Both the position numbers and the translations under genes were made by a program. Of a DNA stretch of 64,000 bases, positions 27,459 through 60,215 are shown piece by piece; position 1 is the stretch's first letter, and each line of letters opens with the position of its first letter. The notes under the pieces were generated by a model, which searched no databases, was not told the DNA's origin, and saw nothing but the letters and a program-made list of their open reading frames with translations. Source of the stretch: Candidatus Microgenomates bacterium (GTDB lineage Bacteria > Patescibacteriota > Microgenomatia > UBA8517); NCBI GenBank assembly GCA_016784385.1, contig JADHUT010000003.1, positions 2,923-66,922 of the forward strand. Direction: 5' to 3'.

Positions 27459-27466
27459 GATTAATC

Positions 27467-29152: not shown

Positions 29153-30786
29153 TAATATTTTGGTAATAACAGATAAAATGCATTTGACCCGTTTGGATAT
29201 TTTACCAGTTTAGCAACCTCAAAGTTAGGTTTATGAAAAAGTCCATCGTATACACTAGGATTTACTACATACAGTACTCCATCAGCAGGCTGACTTTGAT
29301 ACTGGTCCCAATCAAACCTATATATACCAAAGGATGATACCAAGTTAGATGGACGGCTTTCAGTTTGGTTGTATTTAACTGTTTCTAAATACTCGGGTAG
29401 TGGTACTTTGAGATAATAAAGATAGAAAATGTAAGGTTGCATGAAAGCATCAGTCATATACACTCGATACAACACCTCTTCATTTTTTGTAAACTCAACA
29501 ATTTCTTTCATTCCATATACCCACTCTATTGCATATTTCTCTGCATACTCACCATAATAACTTTTCAAATAATTTCTGAAGGGGATTATCATTGCTAAAA
29601 CAATTAAAACAGAACTCAATACTCGGGCGTATTTATTTTTAAAAAGTGTGATTAACACAAACGCCCCATATGCAATAATTAGAGTCCAGCTTCCTGTCAA
29701 AAACATCGCCCTTGCTGCATGAGGCATATCACTACTAACCGCTCCCGGAAGTGGAGCAAGGAGTATCCATGCAATCAAAACCAGCATTTGTTTGTTTTTT
29801 TTAACCAACAACCTCCATAAAATTGCCAATAGTCCAACTATCAACAACGGCAAGTCTAACCAATAAAAAGTACCCACACTTTGGATTGAATGGCGAGGGT
29901 TTGAATCTCCTGAAATAAACAAAAACTCAGATTGAAAGTATTTTTTGTAACGACCAAATACGATCTCTGACATCCCAGACATTTCATTACTAGTTTTTTT
30001 ATAAATAGAAGTCTCTTCAATCTCATTTTTTGGAATTTGATTTTGCTTCAACCTCTCACCTCCCAATAACTGGGGTTTTATAAACAGTAGGCTTATAAAA
30101 AAAGCATAAATTGCCAGTCCACAAAAAAACTGTTTTTTGCTTTTAAGTAGTTTTTTAATATTAATAGTAGCCAAAAGAAGCACCAATGGTGGAGTTACAA
30201 CCTTTGCACTTTGATAAGTCAGCAAATCTATGCCAAAAAGTAAAAACGAAATCCAAATATAATTTTTTCCTTTGCTTCTCAATCCTTTGTAAAAAAGAAA
30301 GGTCCCTGCAAGAAAGAAAAATATCGCAAAGTTAAGCTCATGGTTAAATCTAGAAAACTGGATGTTGTAAGGAGATATTGCTAGAAAAAAACTTGCCAGC
30401 AGCCCCACTTTATCACTTTTAAATATCTCCCTTGCCAAAAAAAATATTGCGATTACATTCAGCACTCCAAAAAAAGCAGCAGAAGCCCTAGTTGCATAAT
30501 CATTAAGGCCAAATAGTCCTACAAAGGGAGCTGTCAGGTAAACATGTACAGGATTTTTGTCATCACCAAAAGACTTGAAAGTAATGGGGAGAGTTTTACC
30601 CCACTCATCTTTACCCCAATGAATAATAGTGTAAGCATTATAGCCAACTGATGCTTCATCCCATGTAATTGATGGTGGGTATTTATCCAACTGAACAAAC
30701 CTCGTCAGGATAGAAATCAATACTATTACGCCAAGCATTATATTGACTATCTTTTTACTACGCAGTAGCAAGCTTTGCTTATTCAT
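29152..30786 (-). CDS. ArnT/PMT-like (GT39/GT83-type) GT-C glycosyltransferase, copy 4 of a four-gene tandem array.
   Basis: ITWDEASVGYNAYTIIHWGKDEWGKTLPITFKSFGDDKNPVHVYLTAPF, the DE-loop signature of ArnT/PMT, with more than 10 TM helices. Shares a 1-nt start/stop overlap with its neighbours. Confidence 0.7.
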   Translation of the reverse strand: MNKQSLLLRSKKIVNIMLGVIVLISILTRFVQLDKYPPSITWDEASVGYNAYTIIHWGKDEWGKTLPITFKSFGDDKNPVHVYLTAPFVGLFGLNDYATRASAAFFGVLNVIAIFFLAREIFKSDKVGLLASFFLAISPYNIQFSRFNHELNFAIFFFLAGTFLFYKGLRSKGKNYIWISFLLFGIDLLTYQSAKVVTPPLVLLLATINIKKLLKSKKQFFCGLAIYAFFISLLFIKPQLLGGERLKQNQIPKNEIEETSIYKKTSNEMSGMSEIVFGRYKKYFQSEFLFISGDSNPRHSIQSVGTFYWLDLPLLIVGLLAILWRLLVKKNKQMLVLIAWILLAPLPGAVSSDMPHAARAMFLTGSWTLIIAYGAFVLITLFKNKYARVLSSVLIVLAMIIPFRNYLKSYYGEYAEKYAIEWVYGMKEIVEFTKNEEVLYRVYMTDAFMQPYIFYLYYLKVPLPEYLETVKYNQTESRPSNLVSSFGIYRFDWDQYQSQPADGVLYVVNPSVYDGLFHKPNFEVAKLVKYPNGSNAFYLLLPKY

Positions 30787-32186
30787 TAGAAATTTTCACA
30801 ACTCTTTGGAAAAGTATAATTTCCAAATGATGCCACAGTAGAAAAACCCCAATCTGAAACATCATTCAATACCTTCGTGCTTATAAAGTCATTGGAATTA
30901 ACCCTATTGTAAAACAATGCAAAAATGTAGGGTTGTGCATATTCATCACTCACACAACCTCCTTCACTACTCTCAAAAATTTGCTTGTACTCAGATTGCC
31001 AAGCACTTGAAGACAAATCATTATAAATAGTTCCAAATTTATAAAAATATCCTTCGAAAGATAATAAATACAAAGCAATAACAACCACCATTACTAACCT
31101 TTTTTGACTTTTAAAGCGCTTAAGCAAAAAATAAATACCCATCGCAGAAATTGTAACCAACACAGGAGACAAAAATATTACCCTCAGTGCATGTGGACTC
31201 TCTCTTGTAATGGCTGCAGGTATTGGAGCTAAAATTAAAGCTATTAAAATATACAAAATTTTAAAGTCTTTTCTTTTAAATATATAAATCAACCCCAGCA
31301 ATATAAACACACTGTCCAATAAATAAAGTTGTGGACTACCCGGCACTTGGCTTCTGGGGTTTGTGTCTCCATTAACAAACAAAAAGTCTGGGGAATAATT
31401 TTTGAAATAATTACTTACTAAATTTTTGGTTGTCCCCACAGTTTGTAGCCTACTAAGGCCGGAATCTTGAGAGTACAACTTATAAATTGGAATCAAACTT
31501 GCCAGTATCAAGAACGCAGAAAACAGCAGTAACAACAGTTCATTTTTTTTACTTTTCTTTTTTCTAGTTGAAAATGCAAAACTAATTAAAATTGGACCCA
31601 GAAACAGCGGAGTTAATATTCGAAAACTATTATAACTGTATGATGACGCCAGAAAAAAAATAACTGAAGGGATAATCAACCATTTTTTATGGTCTGATTG
31701 CAGCCAGAAAAATATTGCCCAAAGAAAAAAGGCCAGTCCTGCAACTGCTTCATAACCAGTTCTTGAAAATATTAAAAACCAAGGAGTAATGGTAAACAAA
31801 AACGAAGAAAGAAGAGAAATTGTTTTACTTTTGGTTAAGTTCATTACAAGCAAATAAAGTCCCAGTACTGAGAAAAATCCATAAATAACTGAGGGAAGTC
31901 TCACCGCAAAAGCAGTTAAACCAAAAATAGCTTCCGAAACCACAACTGAATAAACATAAACAGGAAGCTTAAACTCTCCAAAGGCTCTAAAGTGAAGTGG
32001 TAATACCTCACCCCACTCATCTTTACCAGTAGTTAAAACTGAATAGGCATTATAGCCAATGGAGGCTTCATCCCAATACAAGGATCCTGGAATCTCACTG
32101 ATTCTAAATAACCTTGAGAATAAAAACAACGAAAGTATTAAAATCAAAACAAAATTAGGTCTCAAAAAACTGATTATTTTCTTCAT
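30786..32186 (-). CDS. ArnT/PMT-like GT-C glycosyltransferase, copy 3 of the tandem array.
   Basis: LYWDEASIGYNAYSVLTTGKDEWGEVLPLHFRAFGEFKLPVYVY, a paralog of its neighbours. Confidence 0.7.
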   Translation of the reverse strand: MKKIISFLRPNFVLILILSLFLFSRLFRISEIPGSLYWDEASIGYNAYSVLTTGKDEWGEVLPLHFRAFGEFKLPVYVYSVVVSEAIFGLTAFAVRLPSVIYGFFSVLGLYLLVMNLTKSKTISLLSSFLFTITPWFLIFSRTGYEAVAGLAFFLWAIFFWLQSDHKKWLIIPSVIFFLASSYSYNSFRILTPLFLGPILISFAFSTRKKKSKKNELLLLLFSAFLILASLIPIYKLYSQDSGLSRLQTVGTTKNLVSNYFKNYSPDFLFVNGDTNPRSQVPGSPQLYLLDSVFILLGLIYIFKRKDFKILYILIALILAPIPAAITRESPHALRVIFLSPVLVTISAMGIYFLLKRFKSQKRLVMVVVIALYLLSFEGYFYKFGTIYNDLSSSAWQSEYKQIFESSEGGCVSDEYAQPYIFALFYNRVNSNDFISTKVLNDVSDWGFSTVASFGNYTFPKSCENF

Positions 32187-33919
32187 TGATTATCAACTAT
32201 CTCAAATGCCCCGTCCCCATTTAAGAAATTTACTCTTTCCAACACCTCTACATATTCAGGAAAATCTCCAGGTTTACCTATGAACAAAATCTTTTTATCA
32301 GAATTATCTTTTACAATATCATCATACTTTGATCCTTCATCCCCTAGATCTGGAAAATAATATTTATCAAACCGCAACACTCTCACCCAGTCATATGTTT
32401 CAAATCTTTCTAAATTAGAAATACTTTGGAACTTGGCAGGATCATACGCAAGATTAAAAAGTGTAAAAATATGCGGCTCCCCATAGCTCCTTGTAAAAGT
32501 AACTAGATCATATTTATCTTGGTTGTCTTTTATATACCCAACAACCTGTTTATTGCCATACTGCCAATCGCGTGAATAGCTGATTGGGTATTTAACAAAC
32601 AAACTGTTTAGGAAAATGTAGAAATTGACAGCAAACAAGACTGAACCAACAACCAATGTATTTTTAATTAATTTTTTACCAGCAATGCCGGCCAGGCTTT
32701 GCTTATTCTTTACATTTTTTGCAAAATAATATATACCAACTGCCGTCAATATTTGGTAAACAGGTACTGCAATCAGGGTTCTAAGAGCATTTGGAATACT
32801 GTCATTAGTCATTGAAACTGGAATGAAAGCTATCAGTAACCAAGGTAGTAGAATTTTCAAACTACTACTTTTTTTCTTCAGAAGTATATATAAACCATAT
32901 AACAAAAATGGAGCTTGGAACCAATAAAGCTCACCAACACCTTGAACATGGTGTTGTTTGTGGCCAGCACCGTCAACAAACAAAAAGTTTGGAGTAAAGT
33001 GTGTTAAATAATTTTTTGAAAAATAGAAAGTATTGTATGTATACCTATTGTTAATTAACTTATTTATGACAAATGGAAGTTTTGAATTATTTCTTCTCTC
33101 CTCTATTCTAGGAATTAGCCCTGCATCATCGGTAATGCTAACTAATTTATATCTAGCACTTGCTTCCCCTGAAAGAACAAATGGAATCAATGGGGCCATC
33201 AAAATTATCATCAACACTCCCGATATTAATGACCATTTTTTGTGTTTCCAAAAAAACTTTCTGTAAAAAATTGCAACTACCAAAAGAAACAATGGTGTAA
33301 ACACTCTGGCACTATTGTAAGTATAAATAGAAATAGCAAAAGGAATCATCGACAAAACAATCCATTTCAACTGTTTACCCCTACCTTTCAATCCCTTAAC
33401 CCAAAACCACAACCCCATCAGTATCCAAAACAACGAGAAAGACGATTCAAAAGAACCTCTTGTCAGTTGTATATGCCAAGGAGAAATTGCTAGTAAGAAT
33501 GCGGCCATCAAAGAAATCTTTTCTCTTTCTTTCCTCGATATTATTTTCAATTCCTTTTTAGGGAGGTTATTCAACATCTCTAAAAGCAGAAAATACAAAA
33601 GAAGAACTGACAGGGTTCCGTAAACCACAGGAGTAATCCTGACCCCAAACTCATTTAATCCAAATATAGCAATGCCAGGGATTGACCCGTATATTTGAGC
33701 AGGGAGTTTGTATTCTCCAAAGGATCTGAAATGTAGTGGCATAAACATTCCCCATTCATCTTTCCCGGTTTTTAAAATTGAGTATGCATTATATGCAATT
33801 GAGGTTTCATCCCAATTGAGAGATGGTGGAATTGAGGTAACTTTATAAACTCTCAAAAAAAAGCTTAAAGAAATGATTGCTAATAAAAAAAATTTAGTTA
33901 TTTTCGTGCTCATTATCAT
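32183..33919 (-). CDS. ArnT/PMT-like GT-C glycosyltransferase, copy 2 of the tandem array.
   Basis: LNWDETSIAYNAYSILKTGKDEWGMFMPLHFRSFGEYKLPAQIY. Overlaps its neighbours by 4 nt. Confidence 0.7.
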   Translation of the reverse strand: MIMSTKITKFFLLAIISLSFFLRVYKVTSIPPSLNWDETSIAYNAYSILKTGKDEWGMFMPLHFRSFGEYKLPAQIYGSIPGIAIFGLNEFGVRITPVVYGTLSVLLLYFLLLEMLNNLPKKELKIISRKEREKISLMAAFLLAISPWHIQLTRGSFESSFSLFWILMGLWFWVKGLKGRGKQLKWIVLSMIPFAISIYTYNSARVFTPLFLLVVAIFYRKFFWKHKKWSLISGVLMIILMAPLIPFVLSGEASARYKLVSITDDAGLIPRIEERRNNSKLPFVINKLINNRYTYNTFYFSKNYLTHFTPNFLFVDGAGHKQHHVQGVGELYWFQAPFLLYGLYILLKKKSSSLKILLPWLLIAFIPVSMTNDSIPNALRTLIAVPVYQILTAVGIYYFAKNVKNKQSLAGIAGKKLIKNTLVVGSVLFAVNFYIFLNSLFVKYPISYSRDWQYGNKQVVGYIKDNQDKYDLVTFTRSYGEPHIFTLFNLAYDPAKFQSISNLERFETYDWVRVLRFDKYYFPDLGDEGSKYDDIVKDNSDKKILFIGKPGDFPEYVEVLERVNFLNGDGAFEIVDNQ

Positions 33920-35418
33920 TCAATAATCAAAGTGTTTTTATCCTGCTGCATATTTTCAATATCGTCAGTAATAATTACATTACCATAAGTTTTTGGGAAG
34001 TAACCATATTGGGAAATAACCTCAACAGGATCAATACCTGCATATACTGGAAAACCATATTCTATGTTGTCAATTTTTGTAGACAAAACAACAGTTTCGT
34101 AGTTGTTTTTTTGTTCTAATGCCTCAAGAGTTGTTTCATATGCTCCCTTTGACCAAAAGCCGGCAAACTTATTAGGTGCTAAAAAGTAAACTGCAGACAA
34201 AACAAAAATAAGCTGAATTCCAATCAAACCAGCTGAAATCAAAACCATTTTTTTATTTAATTTTGAGAATGCATATGCAGTAATTAAGATAAAAGGTGGA
34301 ATCATAAAAGCATTTCGAAGTCCGTGGGTTTGACCTAAAAACATTGTGGCCAGTGGAACTATTAGAATCCATTTAACTAAAAACAAAAACTTATTTTTAT
34401 CATTTTTGAAGATTAAATATAGTCCTGCAAACAGAAGTGGTAATTCAACTAAATAAAACATTCCCCATTCTCCTGGATTGTGTCGTGGATTTCTATCACC
34501 CCTAAGATATAAAAAATCGAGAGAAATATTCTCCATGTAATTATCCAAAAGTAGCCGGGAGTAATTGAGTGGCTTGTTATAAAATATTGGCCTGATTAGC
34601 TCAGGTAATGTGGACATTTCTCTTTCACTATTCACTTTTTGAATAATACTTTCCTTAGTGGCTGAATCTGAAAAGATGTTAAGTCTTAAAAACCTCTCCT
34701 CACTTGTTCCTTTTAGGGTTTCATTAACAGATAACCCACCAAAAATTGCCAATATAACTACGGAAATAATAAATAATTTGTTTTTTAAAATTTTTATGTA
34801 ATTAGTCTTTGTTGTTGATCCACTAAAAAACAAAAGGACTAAAAAGATAAATGGTAGGGTCAGTTTAAAAGTTGGATAGGTAAATATTGCCAAACCCCAC
34901 GCAATTGCCATTGGGATATATTTTTTGTACAAGAACATAACTACTCCAAAAGTAGCTAAAAACAATGCGAAATGTGCTTCAAACCCCCCTCTACTTAAAT
35001 AAATGTCCCAAAGTGAAATTGATGTCAAAAAAGATGCAATTAACCCCACTTTCTCACCAAATAACTTCCTGCCCAGAAAATACATCAACACAATCATCCC
35101 CAGACCTGAAATAATCGATAAACCCCTAACTCCCCAAGCTGTTGGCCCAAAAAGAGCTACAAAAGGAATCGAGCCATATACATAACCAGGAGGCCTTCCT
35201 GCTCCCATCTTAAAGGTAACGGGCAAACTTTCTCCTGTTTGGTCCTTACCTGTCTTTAAAAGTGAATAGGCGTCGTAAACTATTGTTAATTCATCACCAT
35301 AAAGAGGCATTGAGTTTAATTTATAAGCGGAGCTTGCAAGGTCTGCGACCTTATAGACTCTGAGCACAAGTCCCAATACAAGAATGCTCAGAATTAATAG
35401 TATAGATTTTCTTCTCAT
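33916..35418 (-). CDS. ArnT/PMT-like GT-C glycosyltransferase, copy 1 of the tandem array.
   Basis: YGDELTIVYDAYSLLKTGKDQTGESLPVTFKMGAGRPPGYVY. It is the first gene of the four-gene operon. Confidence 0.65.
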   Translation of the reverse strand: MRRKSILLILSILVLGLVLRVYKVADLASSAYKLNSMPLYGDELTIVYDAYSLLKTGKDQTGESLPVTFKMGAGRPPGYVYGSIPFVALFGPTAWGVRGLSIISGLGMIVLMYFLGRKLFGEKVGLIASFLTSISLWDIYLSRGGFEAHFALFLATFGVVMFLYKKYIPMAIAWGLAIFTYPTFKLTLPFIFLVLLFFSGSTTKTNYIKILKNKLFIISVVILAIFGGLSVNETLKGTSEERFLRLNIFSDSATKESIIQKVNSEREMSTLPELIRPIFYNKPLNYSRLLLDNYMENISLDFLYLRGDRNPRHNPGEWGMFYLVELPLLFAGLYLIFKNDKNKFLFLVKWILIVPLATMFLGQTHGLRNAFMIPPFILITAYAFSKLNKKMVLISAGLIGIQLIFVLSAVYFLAPNKFAGFWSKGAYETTLEALEQKNNYETVVLSTKIDNIEYGFPVYAGIDPVEVISQYGYFPKTYGNVIITDDIENMQQDKNTLIIE

Positions 35419-35442: not shown

Positions 35443-37281
35443 ATGGAAAGCATATTGATGGGTTCTATTGTTGGTTTTACTACCCTAACTCTGCTTTCCT
35501 ACATACTAATTGTACTAAATATTCCTGCACTAATCATACCAATCACTATTTTAATTATTTTTTTTGGGTTTAAACCTTTCGTTAAGAGAGTCAAAAACTT
35601 AAAATTTACTCTCAATAAAAAAACTATTTTAGTATTACTAGTCTTCACGCTCGGAATATTAGGACAACTTGCAGTAATTTCCCCTTCTGGAGTATTTCAA
35701 AGCGGGGATCTGCTCTTTTGGAGTGCCCACGGCCACGATGGCATGTGGCACATAGCTCTGATGGAGGAAATGAAAAAAGGTTGGCCACTTTCAAATCCAA
35801 TATTCGCAGGAGAAAAGCTGGTTAACTACCACTTTTTCTCGGACCTTCTTCCTGCAATGGTGTCTAAATTCACCCCCCTAACCAACTTGAACCTGTATTT
35901 TAGAATTTTTCCATTTTTTTATTCACTATTTTTAGGAGCATCAGCTTTCTTTTTGACAAAAAAGATCACAAAAAGTTTCCCAGCTTCCATTTGGGCAACA
36001 ATTTTCACCTACTTTGCAGGTAGTTTTGGATTTATATTAACCTACATCAAAAATAAAACTATTGGTGGAGAAAGCATCTTCTGGGCAACACAACCACAAA
36101 GCTCCAGTGGTAATCCTCCACAAATAATTTCAAACTTCTTGTTTCTATCTGCAATTTACTTTGTATATGTTTATTTAGGACAAAAACAAAAAAGAAGCAA
36201 AGTAATTAATTTTTTGATTTGTGTCGTCCTTCTGGGGACTATTTCATCTTTTAAAATATACGGCGGAGTAGTTCTTCTGGGATCACTTGCTCTTATTGGA
36301 ACCTGGCGTCTAGTCAAAGATAGGGATCCTAAACTATTTGTACTATCTTTAATCAGTGGAATTTTGGCACTTATTCTTTACTTACCAAATACTTCCAACT
36401 CCACATCATTTTTAATATATAAGCCTTGGTGGTACATACGAACAATGATAGTAGAGCCCTCCAGACTTAACCTCCTAGATTGGGAGTTGAGAAGGCAAAC
36501 TTATATTTATGAACACAATTGGAAAAGAGTGGTTTGGCTAGAAGGAATGGGATTTATTATATTTTTCTTTGGGAACTTAGGTATGAGATTTTTAGGGCTC
36601 TGGGAATTTGTAAAATCAAAAGCAATTTTTAAGGTCTCCATAGTTCTTTCATTAGTACTCCCCCTTATATTTTTGCAAAAAGGAGTTGCAAGTAACACTA
36701 GTCAATTTTTGCAGTATTTTGTACTTATGTTTGGAATACTGGCAGGGGTTGCTGTATCTAAAATTACCAAACCTAAAAGATTTAAGTTTTTAATCCCCAT
36801 CATTATTGTATTGATGATTCCGACCCAGGTTGGACTACTCAATGAATTTTATTCAAGACCTGCATTTGCTAAGGTCTCTTCTGAAGAATTAACCGCACTT
36901 GAGTTTGTAAAACAAAACACAAGTGAAGATTCTATAATTCTTACACCACCATACAATCAATATTTAAATCTTGGGAGTGTTACACCAAATATTTGGGATT
37001 GGTTTGATACCAGTTATGTTTCAGCACTAACTTCCCGTCACACATTCTTTGACGATTACGAACAGGTTGACATCATGGGGTACGACTATAGACTAAGACT
37101 AGAAGTTAAAAAAATCATCTTTGAAAGTGAAGATGTTGAAATTGTCAAAAAAGCATTTGATTCTACAAACGCTAGTATATTATATTTTCCCAAAGAAACA
37201 CCTCCGCAAATTGATCCAGGATTACTTAACTTGACCAAAACTTTTGAAAATGAAATTATAGAAGTCTGGAAAACAAATTAG
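35443..37281 (+). CDS. Large polytopic membrane protein of 612 aa, unassigned GT-C-like family; a paralog of the gene at 54666..56435.
   Basis: Shares a conserved loop with 54666..56435: SGDLLFWSAHGHDGMWHIALMEEMKKGWPLSNPIFAGEKLVNYHFFSDLL versus GFWGPNGHDGIWHIALAKSFSRTLTLDNPVFAGEVLKNYHLGFDLL. About 13 TM helices precede a C-terminal soluble domain of about 150 aa. Confidence 0.5.
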   Translation: MESILMGSIVGFTTLTLLSYILIVLNIPALIIPITILIIFFGFKPFVKRVKNLKFTLNKKTILVLLVFTLGILGQLAVISPSGVFQSGDLLFWSAHGHDGMWHIALMEEMKKGWPLSNPIFAGEKLVNYHFFSDLLPAMVSKFTPLTNLNLYFRIFPFFYSLFLGASAFFLTKKITKSFPASIWATIFTYFAGSFGFILTYIKNKTIGGESIFWATQPQSSSGNPPQIISNFLFLSAIYFVYVYLGQKQKRSKVINFLICVVLLGTISSFKIYGGVVLLGSLALIGTWRLVKDRDPKLFVLSLISGILALILYLPNTSNSTSFLIYKPWWYIRTMIVEPSRLNLLDWELRRQTYIYEHNWKRVVWLEGMGFIIFFFGNLGMRFLGLWEFVKSKAIFKVSIVLSLVLPLIFLQKGVASNTSQFLQYFVLMFGILAGVAVSKITKPKRFKFLIPIIIVLMIPTQVGLLNEFYSRPAFAKVSSEELTALEFVKQNTSEDSIILTPPYNQYLNLGSVTPNIWDWFDTSYVSALTSRHTFFDDYEQVDIMGYDYRLRLEVKKIIFESEDVEIVKKAFDSTNASILYFPKETPPQIDPGLLNLTKTFENEIIEVWKTN

Positions 37282-40339: not shown

Positions 40340-42025
40340 TTAATCGCTTTTAAACAAATCTTCTTTAGATAGTATTACTATACAAGCTCCAAGTGACATT
40401 ACCGATACAATGTCTAGCAAGAGTCTCATTGTCGACTCACGATACTCAACCTCTACTACGTGCGTTCCAGCTGGAACAGTAATTGTAATTTGACCGAATG
40501 GCTTACCCGCAATAATTTCTGTACGTTTACCATCAATTTTGGCCACCCAGCCTGGATACATATATTTTGTGTAATATAGTTCAAATTCATACTCACTGTC
40601 AGTAATTATTTTAGCATCCAAAGCGCTTTTTTCCTCAATCCTCAAGATTGCGGCTGAATCCGTATATGCTCTTTTGTAAAGCTTGTCTGGTCTTTTTTGG
40701 GTGGCCTTAGGCAGTCTTAAATATTCTTCAGATGTTTGCTTGTAAGCATCACTTGCAGTACCTTTTGGAATATATCTATTTATGTAGTAAGCATCTTCTC
40801 TTCCTAGATATTCGCTGGTTTTGAAGTATTTAAAATTAAGTAGTATTGAAAATAAAATTACAAAAAAAGAGATCAATACTGAAAAATTCTTTTTGTTTTT
40901 GAACAACTTTGCAAATACAAGCAAAAATAAAGGACTAGCAAAGCATATCATCACCAAAAATCTCCAAGGGAATTGAAAATAGGGTAAAAGCGGCAAGTTT
41001 TCCCACAAAAAAGCAGACCTGTGGTTCATCATAAAAATACTTGCAAAAAATATCACTGTTCCCCAAAGCAAAAATATTTTTTCTTCTAATGAAAAGATTT
41101 TGTACTTTTTCACAAAAATGATACTACCTAGAAGTACCACTGCTAATCCAGTAAAACCCATATAAAAAGACATTGTGTCGTAAGGGCCTGGGACTGATGC
41201 TCCGTAACCAAAATAAGGAGTTATGAATTGTCTCAAAGTGGGGAAGTGGTTATAGAAATTAAAAACTGTGTCATATTGCATTAACCGACTTTCCAAAATA
41301 GCCGGAAACCAAAAATATATCGAGGTGAGTAGTCCCGATAAAAGTCCCCAAAAACTTCTACTAATTGCCTCTTTTTTATCTTTAGAAATCCATATAATTC
41401 TTGCTACAACAAAAATAAGTAAAAATGGCATGAACATATATGCCATAATATTGTGCGACAGAACAAGTGCAGCGGTTGAAAGCCCTGCAATTCCTACCCA
41501 TTTAAAAGATTTCTCGTTACTTGTTAATTTTATGAAAGAAAGAGTAATTAGCGGGAGGAAAACAAAAGCAACTATCTCCCCTATCGTTCCCCTAACGAAA
41601 ATTTCCAAAGCTCGGTACGGAGCATATACATATAGTACTGCACCTGCCAAAGACATCTCTCTAGCCATAAATTGCCTGAGCAGCTTGTACATAAAATACA
41701 TTGAAAATGGAATTGATAGACCAAAAACAATCTTCACACTACCAACTAATGAAAAACCAATTAAATGAAAAGCTTCTGCTATATAAAATGGCAGTGGATA
41801 TACAAAACTGAAAAGTGGATAACCAAATCCAAAACTAAGATCAGGTACATACCTTGGTGGGAACTGCAGCATCTTAACTACTCTGTCCATCTCAAAAAGC
41901 CATCCTATGTGTAAGTCATCAGAAACTCCGAAGTAACCATCAACAAATAAATACCTCACAGCAGGAATAGATAAAAGCAATATTATAAAATACAAATATT
42001 TCTTTACAAAATTCACTTTTTTCAT
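40340..42025 (-). CDS. YfhO/COG5617-like polytopic membrane protein (putative GT-C glycosyltransferase), copy 3 of a three-gene paralog array.
   Basis: GYFGVSDDLHIGWLFEMDRVVKMLQFPPRYVPDLSFGFGYPLFSFVYPLPFY is conserved with the two upstream paralogs. The C-terminal beta-rich domain ends in a final TM helix. Confidence 0.5.
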   Translation of the reverse strand: MKKVNFVKKYLYFIILLLSIPAVRYLFVDGYFGVSDDLHIGWLFEMDRVVKMLQFPPRYVPDLSFGFGYPLFSFVYPLPFYIAEAFHLIGFSLVGSVKIVFGLSIPFSMYFMYKLLRQFMAREMSLAGAVLYVYAPYRALEIFVRGTIGEIVAFVFLPLITLSFIKLTSNEKSFKWVGIAGLSTAALVLSHNIMAYMFMPFLLIFVVARIIWISKDKKEAISRSFWGLLSGLLTSIYFWFPAILESRLMQYDTVFNFYNHFPTLRQFITPYFGYGASVPGPYDTMSFYMGFTGLAVVLLGSIIFVKKYKIFSLEEKIFLLWGTVIFFASIFMMNHRSAFLWENLPLLPYFQFPWRFLVMICFASPLFLLVFAKLFKNKKNFSVLISFFVILFSILLNFKYFKTSEYLGREDAYYINRYIPKGTASDAYKQTSEEYLRLPKATQKRPDKLYKRAYTDSAAILRIEEKSALDAKIITDSEYEFELYYTKYMYPGWVAKIDGKRTEIIAGKPFGQITITVPAGTHVVEVEYRESTMRLLLDIVSVMSLGACIVILSKEDLFKSD

Positions 42026-42053
42026 AAAATGGTTATTCTATTTTGGTTATTCT
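42017..42053 (-). promoter_or_regulatory. Conserved leader element at the start of 40340..42025. It contains a direct repeat AGAATAACC-N5-AGAATAACC immediately 5' of the ATG.
   Basis: The 35-nt string ttttcataaaatggttattctattttggttattct recurs at 60181..60215 with one mismatch. On the coding strand it reads AGAATAACCAAAATAGAATAACCATTTTATGAAAA. Confidence 0.4.
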
Positions 42054-42061
42054 AATTTTTA

Positions 42062-43777
42062 TCATTGCCATTCTTTTTTTCTTTTAAGTAGTCCTATAAA
42101 CCATCCTATGCTGACAATTGTTATTATATTAGAAATTGTTCTCAATGGTGTATTTTTAAATCTTCCTTCTATTTTGTAGTCACCTTTGTCTAGTGTTACA
42201 GAAATTCTCCCCAATAAATTATCATGTGTTGAGGGGTAACTCTTGCCATCCACTTTAACTTCCCAATTGGGAAAATAGTAAACAGGTATGTGTATCTCTG
42301 ATAATTCACTTACCTCTGCCTTAAATTCCCATCTATTAGAACGGTTTTTAAAGTCAACAACACTTGCCTCCCCTGAAATGACAAGTGGAGCCTCAGGTGC
42401 TGCTTCTCTTGGCTCTAGAGCAGTTTTAGGTAGGTAATCTAGTATTGCACCGCGTCTTTGTTGTTCCCACAGCTCTCCTGTCAATTTTTGTTTGCTGGTA
42501 ACATCAAAAAACTCACGAGGTTTAAAGTAACTCCAATTTAAAATCACTGTAGATACAATCACTATGATTGCAAAAATCTTTTGCCATTTTTTCTTTACAG
42601 AAAATATGACAAATCCACCCAATATGGATGCAGAAAAAACAGTAAGAGATAAAAACCGCCAGGGAAATTGAAAAAATTGTAGTATTCTAAAGCTCTCCCA
42701 AACAAATGTAGATTTATTGTGTGTCATTAGTACAGAAACTATGAATGTCCCCACAATTCCAACCACTAAAACTTTTGTAGACTTTCTAATTTTGGATGTA
42801 AATATTGTCCTGGAAAAAAATAGTGAAACGGCTGAAAATCCTACCAACAACCAGTATGGCCAACCCACTTGAAAAGACATACCTCCTTCTGGGCCTGGTA
42901 TTGAAGTTCCATAACCCCACGCCCGATCAAAAAAGAGTTGCTTGATACTTATAAAATTAGCTCTGTAATCCAATTCAAACCTAGTTAAGCTTTCAGTTTG
43001 GACCAATTCTTTTTCAAAAAAAGCAGGAAAAACAAAAAAAGATGACAAACCAATAGCCAGAAGAGTAGAGATAACAATAATTTTTACACTTTTCCATTTG
43101 GTTGCAAATAGCCAGTAAATTATCCACACTATTAAAATCGGCAAAAATATAACAGTCATTATATTGTGTGTAATAAGGAAGAAAAACAAGGTGAGAGTAG
43201 AATAAAAGAAAATATTCTTTTCTCCTGGTTTCGTAATCAACTTTAGAAAAAAGTAAAAGACAAAAGGAATTAGCGCCAAGCCCATACTCTCAGACAAAGC
43301 CCCTCGAACGTAAATATCTAGTGCTTTATATGGTGCAAAAAGATAAAGTATGGCTGCTGTAATCCCTGCATATTTTCCCCAAAGTTCAGACACTAAAAAG
43401 TACATACCAAAACTCCCCCCCACTAAAGCAATTAAGAAAAGGAGTTTCGATGCTGCCAAAAAGCCCATAAAATAGCTCAATATTGCTCCTAAATAGTAAG
43501 GGAAGACTCCATAAAAGTTAAAAAGCGGATAGCCGTTCCCCCACCCCATGCTCGAAACCCATCTACAGGGAATTTGACCATCGGCAAAACACTTTCTCAT
43601 TTCAAAAATCCTAATTACTTGCAAATCATCTTGGTGAGAAAAATAACCCCCTCGCAACAGTGGCCAAGCAACAGAAAGACCTAAAATTGTAATCAAAACT
43701 AATTCCCAATGCTTACCAACAAAGTTGACCAAACTACGTTTATTTAATAATTTTTTAATGCTTTGCAGTTTATTCAT
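42062..43777 (-). CDS. YfhO/COG5617-like polytopic membrane protein, copy 2 of the array.
   Basis: GGYFSHQDDLQVIRIFEMRKCFADGQIPCRWVSSMGWGNGYPLFNFYGVFPYY. It contains a G7 homopolymer in the coding sequence (43415-43421). Confidence 0.5.
   Translation of the reverse strand: MNKLQSIKKLLNKRSLVNFVGKHWELVLITILGLSVAWPLLRGGYFSHQDDLQVIRIFEMRKCFADGQIPCRWVSSMGWGNGYPLFNFYGVFPYYLGAILSYFMGFLAASKLLFLIALVGGSFGMYFLVSELWGKYAGITAAILYLFAPYKALDIYVRGALSESMGLALIPFVFYFFLKLITKPGEKNIFFYSTLTLFFFLITHNIMTVIFLPILIVWIIYWLFATKWKSVKIIVISTLLAIGLSSFFVFPAFFEKELVQTESLTRFELDYRANFISIKQLFFDRAWGYGTSIPGPEGGMSFQVGWPYWLLVGFSAVSLFFSRTIFTSKIRKSTKVLVVGIVGTFIVSVLMTHNKSTFVWESFRILQFFQFPWRFLSLTVFSASILGGFVIFSVKKKWQKIFAIIVIVSTVILNWSYFKPREFFDVTSKQKLTGELWEQQRRGAILDYLPKTALEPREAAPEAPLVISGEASVVDFKNRSNRWEFKAEVSELSEIHIPVYYFPNWEVKVDGKSYPSTHDNLLGRISVTLDKGDYKIEGRFKNTPLRTISNIITIVSIGWFIGLLKRKKEWQ
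43415..43421 (-). repeat. G7/C7 homopolymer inside the YfhO-like GT-C gene 42062..43777.
   Basis: aactcccccccactaaag. The coding strand encodes ...ALVGGSFGMY... Confidence 0.55.
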
Positions 43778-45477
43778 TTCTCTCTTTTCTTTAAATGCTC
43801 ATTTTTAGATATCAACCACACCAATATTATTATACTAGCTACTGTTATCAAGTTCCCAATTGACCTCACTGGAGTGTTTGTTAATTTGGCTTCAACACTG
43901 TGTTCCCCTTTTGGCAGTTTGAAAGTAATTAAGCCGTAACAAAACTCCTCACCTCTACAATCATCATTGTAATGATCCACCACTTCTCCATCAACACTTA
44001 CCTGCATACCAGGGAAGTCGTAAAGGGGTAGACGGATGGTTGCATCTTCAGATACCTTGATTATTCCGTTTTGAAAATTACTACCCTTTTTATACTCAAC
44101 CACCTGTACACTGCCGTCCATTATTTCAGGCAATAGTGGAGCTTCTGTAATTGGAGGGAACTCTGCATAAATTGGCAAATAATCAAAAATGCTTATTGTC
44201 ATTTGCTTTTGCCATGAAATTCCAGAAAACTTGTCCGCATCGGTTATATCAAGCCAGTCTTTTGGAACAAAGAAACCAATGTTTAAAATAATTGCCGACA
44301 AAATTAATACTCCCCCCAAGGCGTACTTAATCTTTTTAGAAAAATGTACTGCAAGTCCTCCCAAAAGAGATAGTAAAAATATACTGACTGACAAAAATCT
44401 CCAAGGAAATTGTAACCACCAAAGAGCGGGTATTTGGGCCCATATGAAACTTGATTTCATATGAATCATAAACAAAACTAGTAGTTCGAGTCCTCCTAAA
44501 ATGAGTATTAAATTTATTAGTTTTTTCTCCTTTTTATTCTTTTTGTAATTAAATATTCCCAAAACTACAGCCACTATTCCAACTATCCACTGAATAAGTC
44601 CTGTTGAAAGATTTAAAAGTTCATCGGGAAACCCAGATGATCCATAACCCCACTCTCTGGAAATAAATAGTTTATACAAACTTACAAAATGAGCTCTATA
44701 ATCAAAATAACCTGACAAAATAGAATCTATATGGGTGAATTTAGCCTCAAATAAAACCGGAAGAGTGAAAAAAGCAGCTAATCCAACTCCAAATAATCCA
44801 AATAATCCAATCCTCAGCAATAATCTAATCTTTTTTTCTACAACAGCCCAATAAATAGCCCAGACAATTGCAACTGGTGCAAAAATCAAAGTCATTAAAT
44901 TGTGTGTCAAAAGAAGTAGAGACAAAAAAACTGAAAACCAAATAAAGTATTTCTTTTTTTCAGTTTTTATTAATTTGTACAAAGCCCATAAAATTACCGG
45001 AAACAAAGGTAGTGCCCAAAATTCACTCATAGCACCTCTAACATAAACCTCCACTGCTTTGTAGGGAACGTAAGTGTATAAAACTGAAGAAACAAAACCA
45101 GGCCAAGAGCCAAGAAGCGATTCAACAAGTACAAACATTGCTAAAGCGGAAAATATGTAGCCTGCTACAAACAAAATTTTTACGACATCTATGTATTGAA
45201 AACCAACTCTGTGCAATACTGCACCAACATAATATACAGAAGGAGGATAGAAGTTGAACTGTGGATAACCATACCCATAACCCGCATCAGGAACCCAACG
45301 ACAAGGAATTTGGACGTCTCTGAAACATTTATCCATCTGTTGAATCCTAAAAGCTTGTAAATCATCTTGCATTGAGTAGTATCCAGGACGAAGTAAATTC
45401 CAGGTTACTGGAATCGTAAATATAATCACCAAAACTATCCAAACAAGCCTTTGTCTATTTTTGAATACTTTTTTCAT
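43774..45477 (-). CDS. YfhO/COG5617-like polytopic membrane protein, copy 1 of the array.
   Basis: GYYSMQDDLQAFRIQQMDKCFRDVQIPCRWVPDAGYGYGYPQFNFYPPSVYY. Overlaps copy 2 by 4 nt. Confidence 0.5.
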   Translation of the reverse strand: MKKVFKNRQRLVWIVLVIIFTIPVTWNLLRPGYYSMQDDLQAFRIQQMDKCFRDVQIPCRWVPDAGYGYGYPQFNFYPPSVYYVGAVLHRVGFQYIDVVKILFVAGYIFSALAMFVLVESLLGSWPGFVSSVLYTYVPYKAVEVYVRGAMSEFWALPLFPVILWALYKLIKTEKKKYFIWFSVFLSLLLLTHNLMTLIFAPVAIVWAIYWAVVEKKIRLLLRIGLFGLFGVGLAAFFTLPVLFEAKFTHIDSILSGYFDYRAHFVSLYKLFISREWGYGSSGFPDELLNLSTGLIQWIVGIVAVVLGIFNYKKNKKEKKLINLILILGGLELLVLFMIHMKSSFIWAQIPALWWLQFPWRFLSVSIFLLSLLGGLAVHFSKKIKYALGGVLILSAIILNIGFFVPKDWLDITDADKFSGISWQKQMTISIFDYLPIYAEFPPITEAPLLPEIMDGSVQVVEYKKGSNFQNGIIKVSEDATIRLPLYDFPGMQVSVDGEVVDHYNDDCRGEEFCYGLITFKLPKGEHSVEAKLTNTPVRSIGNLITVASIIILVWLISKNEHLKKREK

Positions 45478-45518: not shown

Positions 45519-46334
45519 TTATGCCGAAGGTAAGAAGTTTTTGGAAGTTGAAATTGTTTTTCCAGTCTCTTTTTCTAACTTTTCTCTAGCTTCTCCTGCA
45601 ATTCTGCCTCCACGCTTTGAGGTTTGTTTATTTTTTTCAAATCCTTGCGGATGTTCTGTTTTAGTGATTTCAGTTGTTGCGGCCTCCCCTAATTGCGAAA
45701 AGAGAAGCTCTAAATCGTTCATGTGATCTCTTAAGTTTTGTCTTTTTAACCCTTTCAGCTTTTTATATTCAGATGGTGTTACTCCAAATGTTGCTTTTGA
45801 AATTTCAGCAGTCAATATCGCATATTCGACAGGTTTCTTTACACCGTGAGTATACCACTCATCAGTTAGCTCCTCACGAATGGCGATTCCGCGCATTCTT
45901 CTTTCAATCCAAGAACCTGGATATCCTTTTGCTTTATAAATTGCTCTTGCCCTTTTTTGTGCCAATTCAGGATCTTCAATTTCTTCTATTCGTTCATAAC
46001 CGACTTTTGCAAGCCATCTTTTAAGTGGTTCTGCTTTAGATGAGGGAATTGATTGAATTATTCGGAACATACCTTCTGTGTTTGCACAATTTATTTTCTG
46101 TGTTCCTCCTGCAGTCTTAATTGAAAGGGGGGCGGCAATTTGCCCCCACCCTTCTGAAAGATCTGAATCACGACGACGCATATCTTTTATATAACCAGAA
46201 GGTTGAGTAGAATCTGTTAAAACAGAGATAATATCAACTATTACAAACCACCATTCATTTTTGTGAATAACCTTCCTAATTTTCTTTTGTCTGAAGATCG
46301 CTATTTTAGTATTTTCAGGTTCTGTGGTTGTCAT
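45519..46334 (-). CDS. DinD-like (DNA-damage-inducible protein D family) protein with an N-terminal Bro-N-like domain.
   Basis: The N-terminal IAIFRQKKIRKVIHKNEWWFVIVDIISVL resembles Bro-N. The C-terminal KGLKRQNLRDHMNDLELLFSQLGEAATTE...GGRIAGEAREKLEKETGK parallels E. coli DinD KGLKKNQKILDHMGSTELAANLFRATQTEE...VGRKVRQTIQELGG. By eye the gene is GC-richer than its neighbours. Confidence 0.55.
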   Translation of the reverse strand: MTTTEPENTKIAIFRQKKIRKVIHKNEWWFVIVDIISVLTDSTQPSGYIKDMRRRDSDLSEGWGQIAAPLSIKTAGGTQKINCANTEGMFRIIQSIPSSKAEPLKRWLAKVGYERIEEIEDPELAQKRARAIYKAKGYPGSWIERRMRGIAIREELTDEWYTHGVKKPVEYAILTAEISKATFGVTPSEYKKLKGLKRQNLRDHMNDLELLFSQLGEAATTEITKTEHPQGFEKNKQTSKRGGRIAGEAREKLEKETGKTISTSKNFLPSA

Positions 46335-47203: not shown

Positions 47204-48118
47204 TTAAGAATATTTGGAAAATATTGTTTCATCAGATACTGTAGATTCTTTTATCTCCTTTGCCCTAGATCTACGCATGTCTTTATATCTCATTAAGGCC
47301 ATCAAGATTATTCTCAAATACCCAGGGTGACTAATTGTTCTTTTTACAAGTGACACCATATGTTTTTTCATCAAATTGTTGCTTGTCAAGTTTTTCCAAA
47401 CAAATAATAAGTGGTTTCGCTCTTGAATCTTTTTAACCTTACCTTGATTCATTTTTTTTATTGTTGCAGAGAGATTTGGACTCACGAAAGCAAAAGGGTC
47501 CCACATAAGTTCATATCCCCTCTTTAAAGCCTTATATGAAACATCCACATCTTCCCAATAAAATGGTGAAAGCACTTTTTCATCCATTCCACCAACCTTC
47601 ATCCACAAATTTTTGCTATATAAGGCTCCACCTGCATTTACAAAAAATGTTTTGTGGACTTTTATATCTTCCTTTCCTCGACCATGCACAATATATCCAT
47701 TTTCAAAATTACCAGTAGCCCATCCACTTCCCTTTTCGTGAAACGATACTCCGAAAAGATTATTGTTCCCGGCAAATAGTTTCAGGGGATTTTTTAATAT
47801 ATCTATTGATATGGAAACATCATTGTTTAGCAGACATAGTAAATTACCTTTTGAATGTCTTACACCAGTATTGATGGCAGCTGAAAAACCTCTATTTGAA
47901 CTATGTTTTATTAATTTAACTTCTGGGAAATTCTTCTTTATTACCTCAATACTAGAGTCAGTCGAACCATCATCTACAATTATTACTTCAACTATTTTAT
48001 TAACTGAATTTTTATAAGCTTTTAATACAGAGGGTAAATTTTTCGACAGAAGTGTTTCACCGTTTAAATTCGGAATAATAACACTTACACTTGAATTTTT
48101 ACCAGATTTACTTCCCAT
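47204..48118 (-). CDS. Glycosyltransferase family 2.
   Basis: VSVIIPNLNGETLLSKNLPSVLKA...EVIIVDDGSTDSS. Confidence 0.7.
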   Translation of the reverse strand: MGSKSGKNSSVSVIIPNLNGETLLSKNLPSVLKAYKNSVNKIVEVIIVDDGSTDSSIEVIKKNFPEVKLIKHSSNRGFSAAINTGVRHSKGNLLCLLNNDVSISIDILKNPLKLFAGNNNLFGVSFHEKGSGWATGNFENGYIVHGRGKEDIKVHKTFFVNAGGALYSKNLWMKVGGMDEKVLSPFYWEDVDVSYKALKRGYELMWDPFAFVSPNLSATIKKMNQGKVKKIQERNHLLFVWKNLTSNNLMKKHMVSLVKRTISHPGYLRIILMALMRYKDMRRSRAKEIKESTVSDETIFSKYS

Positions 48119-60187: not shown

Positions 60188-60215
60188 AAAATGGTTATTC
60201 TATTTTAGTTATTCT
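60181..60215 (-). promoter_or_regulatory. Second copy of the conserved leader element, at the start of 59426..60187. It spans the stop codon of the upstream gene.
   Basis: ttttcataaaatggttattctattttagttattct. The coding strand reads AGAATAACTAAAATAGAATAACCATTTTATGAAAA. Confidence 0.4.

What the first reader, a model, noticed from the sequence alone, without database searches (positions are those of the whole stretch)
42017..42053. Identical 35-nt leader with an AGAATAACC direct repeat upstream of two unrelated genes
The 5' ends of 40340..42025 (YfhO-like GT-C) and 59426..60187 (polyprenol-P sugar synthase) carry the same 35 nt, spanning the start codon and the upstream leader, with one mismatch (copies at 42017-42053 and 60181-60215). 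The rest of the window shows no nucleotide-level repeats. The element reads AGAATAAC(C/T)-AAAAT-AGAATAACC-ATTTT-ATG-AAAA on the coding strand: two 9-mer direct repeats 14 bp apart, ending at the ATG. In both cases it overlaps the stop codon of the upstream gene. Conservation this tight in non-coding sequence of a fast-evolving AT-rich locus implies function. Candidates are a binding site for a dimeric or tandem regulator, a ribosome-recruitment/translational-coupling element in an organism without SD sequences, or a recombination site used to shuffle cassettes.
Basis: seen in the sequence. Interest (0 to 1): 0.5.

Follow-up and report, generated by a model that had tools for sequence, protein, structure and literature searches.

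The report
Copy-pasted gene-start module in glycan locus
A 28-base block sits immediately before the start codon of two unrelated sugar-coat genes in this window, and before a third gene on a separate contig that probably belongs to the same uncultured bacterium; related species lack it at all three sites, and it most likely acts as a small copied promoter that gives each gene its own start, a known kind of event in an unusually compact form.

Summary
The repeat is real. It is 37 nt with 36/37 identity, at 42017-42053 and 60179-60215, on the strand of the minus-strand genes. Its last 9 nt (ATGAAAAAA) are this genome's usual start context. The distinctive part is a 28-nt block of two 14-nt units, AGAATAAC(C/T)AAAAT and AGAATAACCATTTT.

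A third copy lies outside the window, in contigs from the same samples at matching coverage. There a 23-nt unit that includes the ATG is repeated three times.

The nearest relatives have about 72-83% protein identity. They lack the block at all three orthologous junctions, where the genes abut or overlap. The block is therefore a recent lineage-specific insertion, not conserved non-coding sequence. One relative carries a related 42-nt in-frame insertion inside a neighbouring gene.

Native first genes in this window have a -10 hexamer 6 or 9 nt before the start codon, and Shine-Dalgarno motifs are not enriched. The block supplies TAGAAT exactly 9 nt before the ATG.

Best reading (confidence about 0.45): a copied -10-plus-start module for leaderless or near-leaderless mRNA, which uncouples a gene from its operon. 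It resembles "putative mobile promoters" but is shorter than their criteria. Promoter activity and the copying mechanism are untested. No RNA structure, Rfam family, recombinase or rearrangement was found.

The parts
42017..42053 (-). Copy A of the 37-nt repeat: AGAATAACCAAAAT + AGAATAACCATTTT + ATGAAAAAA
   Evidence: (D13)
60179..60215 (-). Copy B of the 37-nt repeat: AGAATAACTAAAAT + AGAATAACCATTTT + ATGAAAAAA
42026..42053 (-). Distinctive 28-nt block at A (two 14-nt units). It is lineage-specific relative to orthologous junctions in L019, L058 and L022
60188..60215 (-). Distinctive 28-nt block at B. It is a clean 28-nt insertion relative to relative L020, where the upstream stop overlaps the start (ATGA)
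42035..42040 (-). -10-like hexamer TAGAAT, 9 nt before the ATG of gene A
   Evidence: the sequence
60197..60202 (-). -10-like hexamer TAGAAT, 9 nt before the ATG of gene B. The consensus scan pairs it with TTTAGA at 16 nt (9 of 12)
41996..42065 (-). Extended stretch of locus A that is also found at the third locus C (L010). It runs from ATGATAAAAATT upstream to ATGAAAAAAGTGAATTTTGTAAAGAAATAT in the first 10 codons
42023..42025 (-). Start codon of gene A
60185..60187 (-). Start codon of gene B
42062..42064 (-). Stop codon (TGA) of the upstream 571-aa GT-C paralogue, 8 nt before the 37-mer
60209..60211 (-). Stop codon (TAA) of the upstream 506-aa PMT_2 gene. It was created inside the first 9-mer by the insertion
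40340..42025 (-). Gene A: 561-aa GT-C-type membrane glycosyltransferase (weak PMT_2 hit), followed by GT87 and MptA_B-family genes
59426..60187 (-). Gene B: 253-aa GT2, labelled dolichyl-/polyprenyl-phosphate glycosyltransferase by some sources. It is followed by a PMT_2 gene and a flippase

Best explanation
The element is a recently copied cis-acting start module. It is a 28-nt block of two 14-nt units (AGAATAACC plus an A/T pentamer), and its proximal unit places a -10-type hexamer (TAGAAT) 9 nt in front of the ATG. In this organism Shine-Dalgarno motifs are not enriched, and first genes carry a -10 hexamer 6 or 9 nt from the start codon, which implies leaderless or near-leaderless mRNA.

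Inserting this block between two tightly packed or overlapping genes would uncouple the downstream gene from the upstream one. It would also give the downstream gene its own transcription and translation start. The block was placed at three gene starts (A and B in the window, C on another contig). All of these contigs are occupied by cell-envelope glycan genes, which in the relatives lie together in one region. At locus C a 23-nt unit containing the ATG was then amplified to three tandem copies.

Shown here: the repeat itself, its absence in relatives, its exact placement at start codons, the third copy with its tandem array, and the native -10-to-ATG spacing classes.

Inferred: promoter activity; the direction of copying for the flanks that A and C share (from A to C; no direction is shown for copy B, and the source of the 9-mer block itself is unknown); and the copying mechanism, which is probably illegitimate or micro-homology-templated recombination plus slippage.
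For: Repeat and significance.

Third locus C. It carries AGAATAACC-AAAAT-[AGAATAACCATTTTATGAAAAAT]x3 and shares A's first codons. It occurs in the same ENA samples as the window's genes at matching coverage: 4.3x against 5.0x in ERZ24794671, and 2.8x against 3.0x in ERZ24794642.

Absence at orthologous junctions in relatives: locus C in L015, L016 and L017; locus A in L019, L022 and L058; locus B in L020 and L021. One search aligns all three. At B the insertion is exactly 28 nt and replaces an ATGA stop/start overlap.

Native architecture. Hexamers matching TATAAT at 5 of 6 or better sit 6 nt (6 genes, 0.35 expected) or 9 nt (6 genes including the two copies, 0.5 expected) before start codons. 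These -10 positions are conserved in relatives for the flippase gene and a GT2 gene. SD-like 4-mers are not enriched.

The consensus scan calls TTTAGA-16-TAGAAT at B. There is no competing RNA structure (z = -0.65 and +0.71) and no Rfam family.
Against: The promoter is weak by E. coli criteria. It has no TG extension, the -35 matches 4 of 6 at B and is not called at all at A, and promoter-like hits are not enriched over shuffles in these AT-rich regions.

A 9-nt gap puts the expected transcription start 2-3 nt before the ATG rather than on it.

A promoter does not need 28 identical bases, and it does not explain the distal 9-mer.

The related 42-nt insertion in relative L020 lies inside a coding region. 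The copying process is therefore not restricted to gene starts, and some copies may have no function.

There are no transcript data, and only about 130 kb of this clade could be inspected, so the total copy number in the genome is unknown.
Confidence: 0.45

Rival explanations
1. Neutral by-product. A slippage-prone, low-complexity AT-rich patch was spread by ectopic templated repair or illegitimate recombination among similar A-rich gene starts (ATGAAAAAA...). It is tolerated but has no function.
For: The block is young and lineage-specific. It forms tandem arrays (14-nt and 23-nt periods). A relative carries a related insertion in frame inside a coding sequence, where it cannot be a gene-start signal. 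Copy C carries flanks specific to locus A, as expected from patch copying rather than from a defined element. Junctions show A-run and GAAT micro-homologies.
Against: All three copies in this species sit in the same orientation, and the proximal unit abuts the ATG in the same register. This is unlikely without targeting or selection. At B the insertion destroyed an ATGA overlap, which should lower expression of the downstream gene unless something compensates. The sequence is identical across at least 5 samples.
Confidence: 0.2
2. Operator for a DNA-binding regulator. The direct 9-mer repeats AGAATAACC (2, 2 and 4 copies) are bound by a tandem or dimeric factor that co-regulates the three glycan genes. 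This could work on top of a promoter role.
For: The 9-mers are exact direct repeats, more identical than a core promoter needs. The three targets all lie among envelope-glycan genes.
Against: Spacings of 14 and 23 bp do not keep a constant helical phase. No transcription-factor gene turned up in the 38 window ORFs put through Pfam; a Bro-N protein is the only candidate DNA-binding protein among them. The motif is absent from relatives, so a dedicated regulator would have to be new as well. The 9-mer overlaps the -10-like hexamer, so a bound factor would be a repressor.
Confidence: 0.15
3. Translation element. The block is an unstructured A/U-rich spacer that lets ribosomes start without a Shine-Dalgarno sequence, or restart after the upstream gene.
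For: There is no SD enrichment. The start regions are unstructured. At locus C the upstream ATGs open an 8-codon reading frame whose UGA overlaps the next AUG, an arrangement that favours re-initiation.
Against: The ancestral junctions were already overlapping or only 2-16 nt apart, the best geometry for coupling, so the insertion worsens coupling. The distance from the upstream stop to the ATG differs between A (36 nt) and B (21 nt). There is no complementarity to a known rRNA site, although the 16S rRNA gene was not available.
Confidence: 0.1
4. Recombination or phase-variation site. The direct repeats would mediate deletion, amplification or cassette exchange of the 18-kb segment between A and B. 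Alternatively, the number of tandem units would switch expression on and off.
For: The copies are direct repeats on one strand, 18.2 kb apart, in a surface-glycan locus, with a 23-nt tandem array at C. Logan contigs break at the repeat.
Against: Gene order around A and B is collinear with relatives that lack the repeat. Every assembly that spans the array shows the same copy number (4 of 4 at C). The breaks at locus A (L006, L007) are explained by a 30-mer shared with locus C, equal to k-1 for k = 31 (the Logan k is from my recollection, not a tool result); the break at locus C (L012) is unexplained. The 23-nt unit cannot shift the frame of the last ATG. No recombinase was found among the 38 window ORFs put through Pfam.
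Confidence: 0.05

Closest known systems
Putative mobile promoters (PMPs; Matus-Garcia, Nijveen & van Passel, NAR 2012, PMC3488235)
   Same: Near-identical sequence lies upstream of non-homologous genes in one genome, while the flanking genes do not align. PMPs are interpreted as re-use of a ready-made promoter. That paper proposes that pairs limited to one species arise by recombination-mediated duplication.
   Different: PMPs were defined as alignments of at least 50 nt within 100-nt promoter fragments. As I read the methods text those fragments span -150 to -50, but the legend of that paper's Figure 1 is ambiguous. Here the shared block is 28-37 nt (A and B) or about 50-59 nt (A and C). It abuts and includes the start codon, and it carries tandem 14-nt and 23-nt units. 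The original pipeline would not have detected it.
Leaderless-mRNA promoters (a -10 hexamer a few nt before the start codon, as described in Actinobacteria, Deinococcus and archaea; from my general knowledge)
   Same: A -10-like hexamer lies at a fixed short distance from the ATG, there is no SD, and the spacing matches native genes in this window.
   Different: The spacing is 9 nt rather than the 6-7 nt that would put the transcription start on the A of the ATG. Activity has not been measured. The module is a duplicated insertion, not an in-place evolved promoter.
Small non-autonomous repeats that bring promoters or insert in frame (Correia elements in Neisseria, Rickettsia palindromic elements; from my general knowledge)
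   Same: A short sequence family is found at non-orthologous sites in related genomes. It lies sometimes next to gene starts and once in frame inside a gene (L020).
   Different: There are no terminal inverted repeats and no target-site duplication. The size is 28-42 nt instead of about 100-150 nt. Only 4 sites are known. Copy C carries flanks specific to locus A, which argues for patch copying rather than transposition.
Phase-variable tandem repeats in promoters or 5' ends of surface-glycan genes (Haemophilus, Neisseria, Campylobacter; from my general knowledge)
   Same: There are tandem repeats at the 5' ends of envelope-glycan genes.
   Different: The units are 14 and 23 nt long. No copy-number variation was seen in the assemblies available. 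Changing the unit number would not shift the reading frame of the last ATG.

Membership tests
Putative mobile promoter (PMP) | Homologous sequence upstream of non-homologous CDSs, with neither the upstream nor the downstream CDSs aligning | tested here: met
   Gene A (PMT_2-like GT-C) and gene B (GT2) are unrelated, as is the 92-aa protein at C. Local alignments stop at the element.
Putative mobile promoter (PMP) | Alignment of at least 50 nt at 80% identity or better within the promoter fragment | tested here: not met
   A and B share 37 nt (28 nt distinctive). A and C share about 50 contiguous nt, of which 27-30 are coding. The criteria come from PMC3488235.
Sigma-70-type promoter for leaderless or short-leader mRNA | A -10 hexamer at the distance from the start codon used by native genes | tested here: met
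   TAGAAT-N9-ATG. Native peaks are at 6 and 9 nt and are conserved in relatives.
Sigma-70-type promoter for leaderless or short-leader mRNA | A -35 element or a TG extension | tested here: inconclusive
   At B the scan finds TTTAGA at 16 nt (4 of 6). At A nothing is called. There is no TG extension.
Sigma-70-type promoter for leaderless or short-leader mRNA | A transcription start at or just before the ATG | not testable with these tools
   No transcript data were available.
MITE or other small transposable element | Terminal inverted repeats and a target-site duplication | tested here: not met
   Only direct repeats are present. The clean 28-nt insertion at B has no flanking duplication.
MITE or other small transposable element | Many dispersed copies in a genome and in related genomes | tested here: inconclusive
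   Three sites are known in this species and one in a relative. Scans of GTDB representative genomes and of IMG/VR gave only chance hits. The JGI scan gave only locus C. The organism's full genome was not available.
Phase-variable tandem repeat (contingency locus) | Unit number varies between or within strains | tested here: not met
   Four assemblies spanning locus C all have 3 units. Loci A and B are identical in the assemblies shown, from several samples. Short-read assemblies could hide variation.
Site-specific recombination site (shufflon, integron attC or similar) | A recombinase nearby and rearranged or variable gene order at the sites | tested here: not met
   No recombinase was found among the 38 window ORFs put through Pfam. 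Gene order is collinear with relatives.
Shine-Dalgarno ribosome-binding site | A GGAGG-like motif 5-10 nt before the start codon | tested here: not met
   There is none in the element. SD motifs are not enriched in the window.
Known structured RNA (Rfam) | A match to a covariance model, or a stable fold | tested here: not met
   Rfam gave no hit at E <= 1. Fold z-scores are -0.65 and +0.71.

The most novel reading that the evidence does not exclude
The AGAATAACC-plus-pentamer units could be a very small nomadic DNA module, with 14-nt and 23-nt units and no transposase or inverted repeats. An as yet unknown templated mechanism would copy it preferentially onto start codons of envelope-glycan genes in these reduced-genome bacteria, and occasionally in frame into genes. 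In that case it would be a start-codon-targeted mobile promoter that rewires operons in organisms without Shine-Dalgarno sequences.
Probability: 0.12. Interest if true: 0.7.

Novelty: new variant of a known kind. Interest (0 to 1): 0.4.

Why it matters
If the block is an active promoter, it shows a simple route by which a bacterium with a small genome, no Shine-Dalgarno use and leaderless mRNAs can split an operon. It pastes about 28 bases carrying a -10 box directly onto a start codon. Here that happened at three genes for the cell-envelope glycan, the surface these episymbiotic-type bacteria present to hosts and phages. The finding also shows that promoter re-use can occur below the size limits of earlier surveys. 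If the block has no function, it is a small, well-dated example of ectopic patch copying and tandem amplification. In either case its identity reflects recency, not conservation.

Tried and rejected
- Exact scan of GTDB representative genomes for AATAGAATAACCATTTTATG: 0 hits. The organism and its close kin are not in that set.
- Gapped scan GAATAACCAAAAT-N1-10-GAATAACC in GTDB genomes: 35 hits, all unrelated coding repeats or conserved genes in other phyla.
- Similar scan of IMG/VR: 18 chance hits, so no phage origin.
- JGI metagenome scan: only locus C plus one GC-rich chance hit, L009.
- Rfam: nothing. RNA folding: no structure at A or B.
- Idea that Logan contig breaks show population variation in unit number: rejected for locus A. 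The break point there is the 30-mer shared between loci A and C, which is k-1 for k = 31 (the Logan k is from my recollection, not a tool result). The break at locus C (L012) is unexplained.
- Idea that the repeats are att sites of an inserted 18-kb island: rejected, because relatives without the repeats have the same gene order.
- Idea that the unit derives from gene B's own first codons: similarity is only marginal.
- Fur-box and DnaA-box resemblance, checked by eye: not convincing.
- Literature search for leaderless mRNAs in the Candidate Phyla Radiation: nothing directly relevant.
- The source of the 9-mer itself, and the donor of the L020 insertion, could not be identified. L058 shows that organism's locus A lacks the element.
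Full report
**1. The observation**

Read on the minus strand, the two gene starts are:
- Copy A: ...tggcaaTGAtaaaaatt-AGAATAACC-AAAAT-AGAATAACC-ATTTT-ATG-AAAAAA-gtgaat...
- Copy B: ...gatttttagataa-AGAATAACT-AAAAT-AGAATAACC-ATTTT-ATG-AAAAAA-aatagc...

The repeat finder lists them as a 37-nt pair, 97% identical, at 42017-42053 and 60179-60215 (family D13). A 31-nt pattern with up to 3 mismatches finds only these two sites, with none in 100 shuffles. The 9-mer AGAATAACC occurs 4 times in the window against 0.87 expected, and 3 of the 4 are here. No other repeat in the window exceeds about 80% identity; the rest are paralogous coding segments.

Two details in the finding are wrong or need qualifying.
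- Only copy B overlaps the upstream stop codon (TAA 60209-60211). At copy A the stop (TGA 42062-42064) lies 8 nt before the repeat.
- ATGAAAAAA is the start of many genes in this window, so the distinctive shared part is the 28 nt before the ATG.

**2. Context**

The window matches an ENA metagenome contig (NODE_2489, 71.5 kb, analysis ERZ24794647) and identical contigs from several other samples. NCBI names the proteins "Candidatus Microgenomates bacterium", and the closest named relatives are Woesebacteria.

Most of the 38 ORFs put through Pfam, spread across the window, fall in envelope-glycan families. They include GT2, GT4, GT-C/PMT_2, GT87, flippases, epimerases and an aminotransferase. 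No recombinase, transposase or classical regulator was found in the ORFs scanned.

Gene A (40340-42025) is a GT-C-type membrane glycosyltransferase. Gene B (59426-60187) is a GT2 that some sources label as a dolichyl-/polyprenyl-phosphate glycosyltransferase.

**3. A third copy**

An exact scan of JGI metagenome contigs for the proximal 20-mer returned one relevant contig (L008 = JACKQG010216540.1). The same locus was recovered on four further contigs, three of them from the ENA study that yielded the window and the fourth a Logan contig (L012) that begins inside the array.

Coverage on these contigs matches that of the window's genes within the same samples. In ERZ24794671 it is 4.3x against 5.0x, and in ERZ24794642 it is 2.8x against 3.0x. 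In two relatives the orthologues of loci B and C lie on one contig about 18 kb apart. Locus C therefore very probably belongs to the same genome.

Locus C reads: stop of a CAP-domain gene, then ...cgagATGAAAATG-AGAATAACC-AAAAT-[AGAATAACC-ATTTT-ATGAAAAAT]x3-GTGAATTTTGTAAAAAAAATATCG.... The last ATG starts a 92-aa membrane protein. The four assemblies that span the array show the same three units.

The earlier ATGs in the array each open an 8-codon frame (MKNRITIL). Its TGA overlaps the next ATG (read directly from the sequence).

A and C share more than A and B do. About 50 contiguous nt run from AAAATAGAATAACC through ATGAAAAA(A/T)GTGAATTTTGTAAA, with further similarity upstream (ATGA(T)AAAAT(T/G)AGAATAACC).

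Two Logan contigs (L006, L007) begin exactly at the 30-mer that loci A and C share. That length is k-1 for k = 31 (the Logan k is from my recollection, not a tool result), which explains these two breaks without invoking population variation.

**4. The block is not conserved: it is a recent insertion**

I retrieved the orthologous junctions from the closest available relatives.

- Locus C. In L015, L016 and L017 the small protein is 82%, 81% and 76% identical. The CAP gene stop is followed by only about 10-22 nt and then the ATG. There is no 9-mer, and the proteins are 85-89 aa long without the MKNVNFVK extension.
- Locus A. L019 (72% identity) has the 14-nt spacer AAATTATGAATTTT. The flanks TAAAAATT and ATTTTATG are shared with the window, but the two 9-mers are missing. 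L058 (71%) has a 2-nt gap. In L022 (75%) the genes overlap.
- Locus B. In L020 (83%) the upstream PMT_2 gene ends in an ATGA overlap with the GT2 start, and the alignment shows a clean 28-nt gap opposite the block. L021 (83%) has a different upstream gene and no block.

One relative organism is represented by L058, L020 and L015, all from the same run (SRR24953772). A second is probably represented by L019, L021 and L017, which come from sibling runs (SRR22388171 and SRR22388162). Each lacks the block at all three sites.

The N-terminus of gene A (MKKVNFVKKYLY) aligns with its orthologues (MEKIQKFIKKYLY), whereas the locus C protein has gained residues. For the flanks that A and C share, locus A is therefore the likelier donor and locus C the recipient. 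That is an inference.

**5. A related insertion in a relative**

In L020, the PMT_2 gene just downstream of the GT2 carries a 42-nt in-frame insertion: GTGAATAACCAAAATATGAATTTTAGAATAACCAAAATAAAT. It adds 14 residues that are absent from the window and L021 orthologues. It consists of two 23-nt units, GAATAACC-AAAAT-ATGA-ATTTT-A.

The same sequence family therefore exists in a second species at a non-orthologous site. That organism's own loci A, B and C lack it, so the donor is unknown. This shows that the copying process is not confined to gene starts.

**6. How genes start in this organism**

- SD-like 4-mers at -20 to -5 occur in 8 of 57 genes, against 7.4 expected.
- Hexamers matching TATAAT at 5 of 6 or better (T1, A2 and T6 fixed) pile up 6 nt before the start (6 genes, 0.35 expected) and 9 nt before it (6 genes including the two copies, 0.5 expected).
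- These positions are conserved in relatives. The flippase gene has TACAAT-N7-GTG in the window, TATAAT-N7-GTG in L020 and TACAAT-N7-GTG in L021. A GT2 gene has TAAAAT-N6-ATG in both the window and L021.

First genes therefore appear to be transcribed as leaderless or near-leaderless mRNAs, and internal genes are packed or overlapping. The block supplies TAGAAT exactly 9 nt before the ATG at A, B and C. The consensus scan calls TTTAGA-16-TAGAAT at B but nothing at A, and such hits are not enriched over shuffles.

**7. Interpretation**

In an organism with this architecture, a gene inside an operon gains independent expression only if a -10 box lands right at its start codon. All three insertions do exactly that, in the same orientation and register. 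At B the insertion also destroyed an ATGA overlap, which should otherwise hurt expression of the downstream gene.

I therefore favour a copied -10-plus-start module, with confidence about 0.45. The identity of the copies reflects their youth.

Weak points:
- The -35 is poor and there is no TG extension.
- The 9-nt gap implies a 2-3-nt leader rather than a start on the ATG.
- The distal 9-mer is unexplained.
- The coding-region copy in L020 has no obvious role.
- There are no transcript data.

Rival readings and my confidence in each:
- Neutral patch copying plus slippage (0.2).
- An operator for an unknown regulator, possibly in addition to the promoter role (0.15).
- A translation spacer (0.1).
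- A recombination or phase-variation site (0.05).

No RNA structure and no Rfam family were found.

**8. Comparison with what is known**

The closest described category is the "putative mobile promoter" (PMC3488235). These are near-identical upstream sequences in front of non-homologous genes. That paper proposes that pairs limited to one species arise by recombination-mediated duplication.

The present case works like one but fails the formal length criterion, and it lies closer to the start codon than the fragments surveyed there (as I read the methods; the figure legend is ambiguous). It lacks the inverted repeats and target duplications of MITE-like elements. It shows no unit-number variation of the kind seen at contingency loci.

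I rate it a new variant of a known kind, with moderate interest (0.4). The main open points are whether the block is an active promoter, how many copies the genome holds, and how such a short patch is copied.

Noticed in passing
window-wide; e.g. 7088..8092, 27800..28264, 33916..35418, 35443..37281, 53718..54638 (6 nt); 27467..27757, 43774..45477, 47204..48118 (9 nt): -10-like hexamers sit at two sharp distances (6 and 9 nt) from start codons, and SD motifs are not enriched. This implies widespread leaderless or near-leaderless mRNAs in this Microgenomates-type organism. The positions are conserved in relatives for the flippase gene and a GT2 gene.
   Followed up: partly
L020 11788-11829 (relative, run SRR24953772): A 42-nt in-frame insertion made of two 23-nt units of the same sequence family lies inside the PMT_2 gene downstream of the GT2 orthologue. 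It adds 14 residues after a transmembrane segment. Its donor is unknown.
   Followed up: partly
L010 about 1640-1716 (locus C, outside the window): Three tandem 23-nt units each contain an ATG. The upstream ATGs open 8-codon frames (MKNRITIL) whose TGA overlaps the next ATG.
   Followed up: partly
window 42005-42013 versus L018: A low-coverage strain contig (L018, 3x) differs from the window at only 2 of 2520 nt. Both differences lie in codons 5-7 of gene A, just after the element (GTGAtTTTTtTAAAG). This could be real variation or assembly noise next to a repeat.
   Followed up: no
window 45519..46334 (-): A Bro-N domain protein with its own promoter-like upstream sequence sits in the middle of the glycosyltransferase cluster. 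It is the only candidate DNA-binding protein among the ORFs scanned.
   Followed up: no
window 27201..27757 (-) and 25644..27176 (-): A Phd/ParE-type toxin-antitoxin pair and a VKOR-dihydroorotate dehydrogenase fusion protein are embedded in the glycan locus.
   Followed up: no
window 29152..35418 and 40340..45477 (-): There are two runs of three tandem paralogous large membrane-protein genes, with 70-79% identical DNA patches (repeat families D1, D3, D7, D9). The 40340..45477 run is GT-C type by Pfam; the 29152..35418 run was not scanned.
   Followed up: no
window 41982-42009 (-): A promoter-like site, TTGTAA-16-TATAAT (10 of 12), lies inside the first codons of gene A, downstream of its ATG.
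   Followed up: no
window 60160-60187 (-): Gene B's first codons (ATGAAAAAAAATAGCAATAATATATTTT) loosely resemble the 23-nt unit ATGAAAAATAGAATAACCATTTT. The score ties for top among 57 gene starts, so the significance is marginal.
   Followed up: partly
L006 and L007 position 1; L012 position 1: Logan contigs from independent runs break at the element. The breaks at locus A (L006, L007) fall exactly at the 30-mer shared with locus C. The break at locus C (L012) is unexplained.
   Followed up: partly
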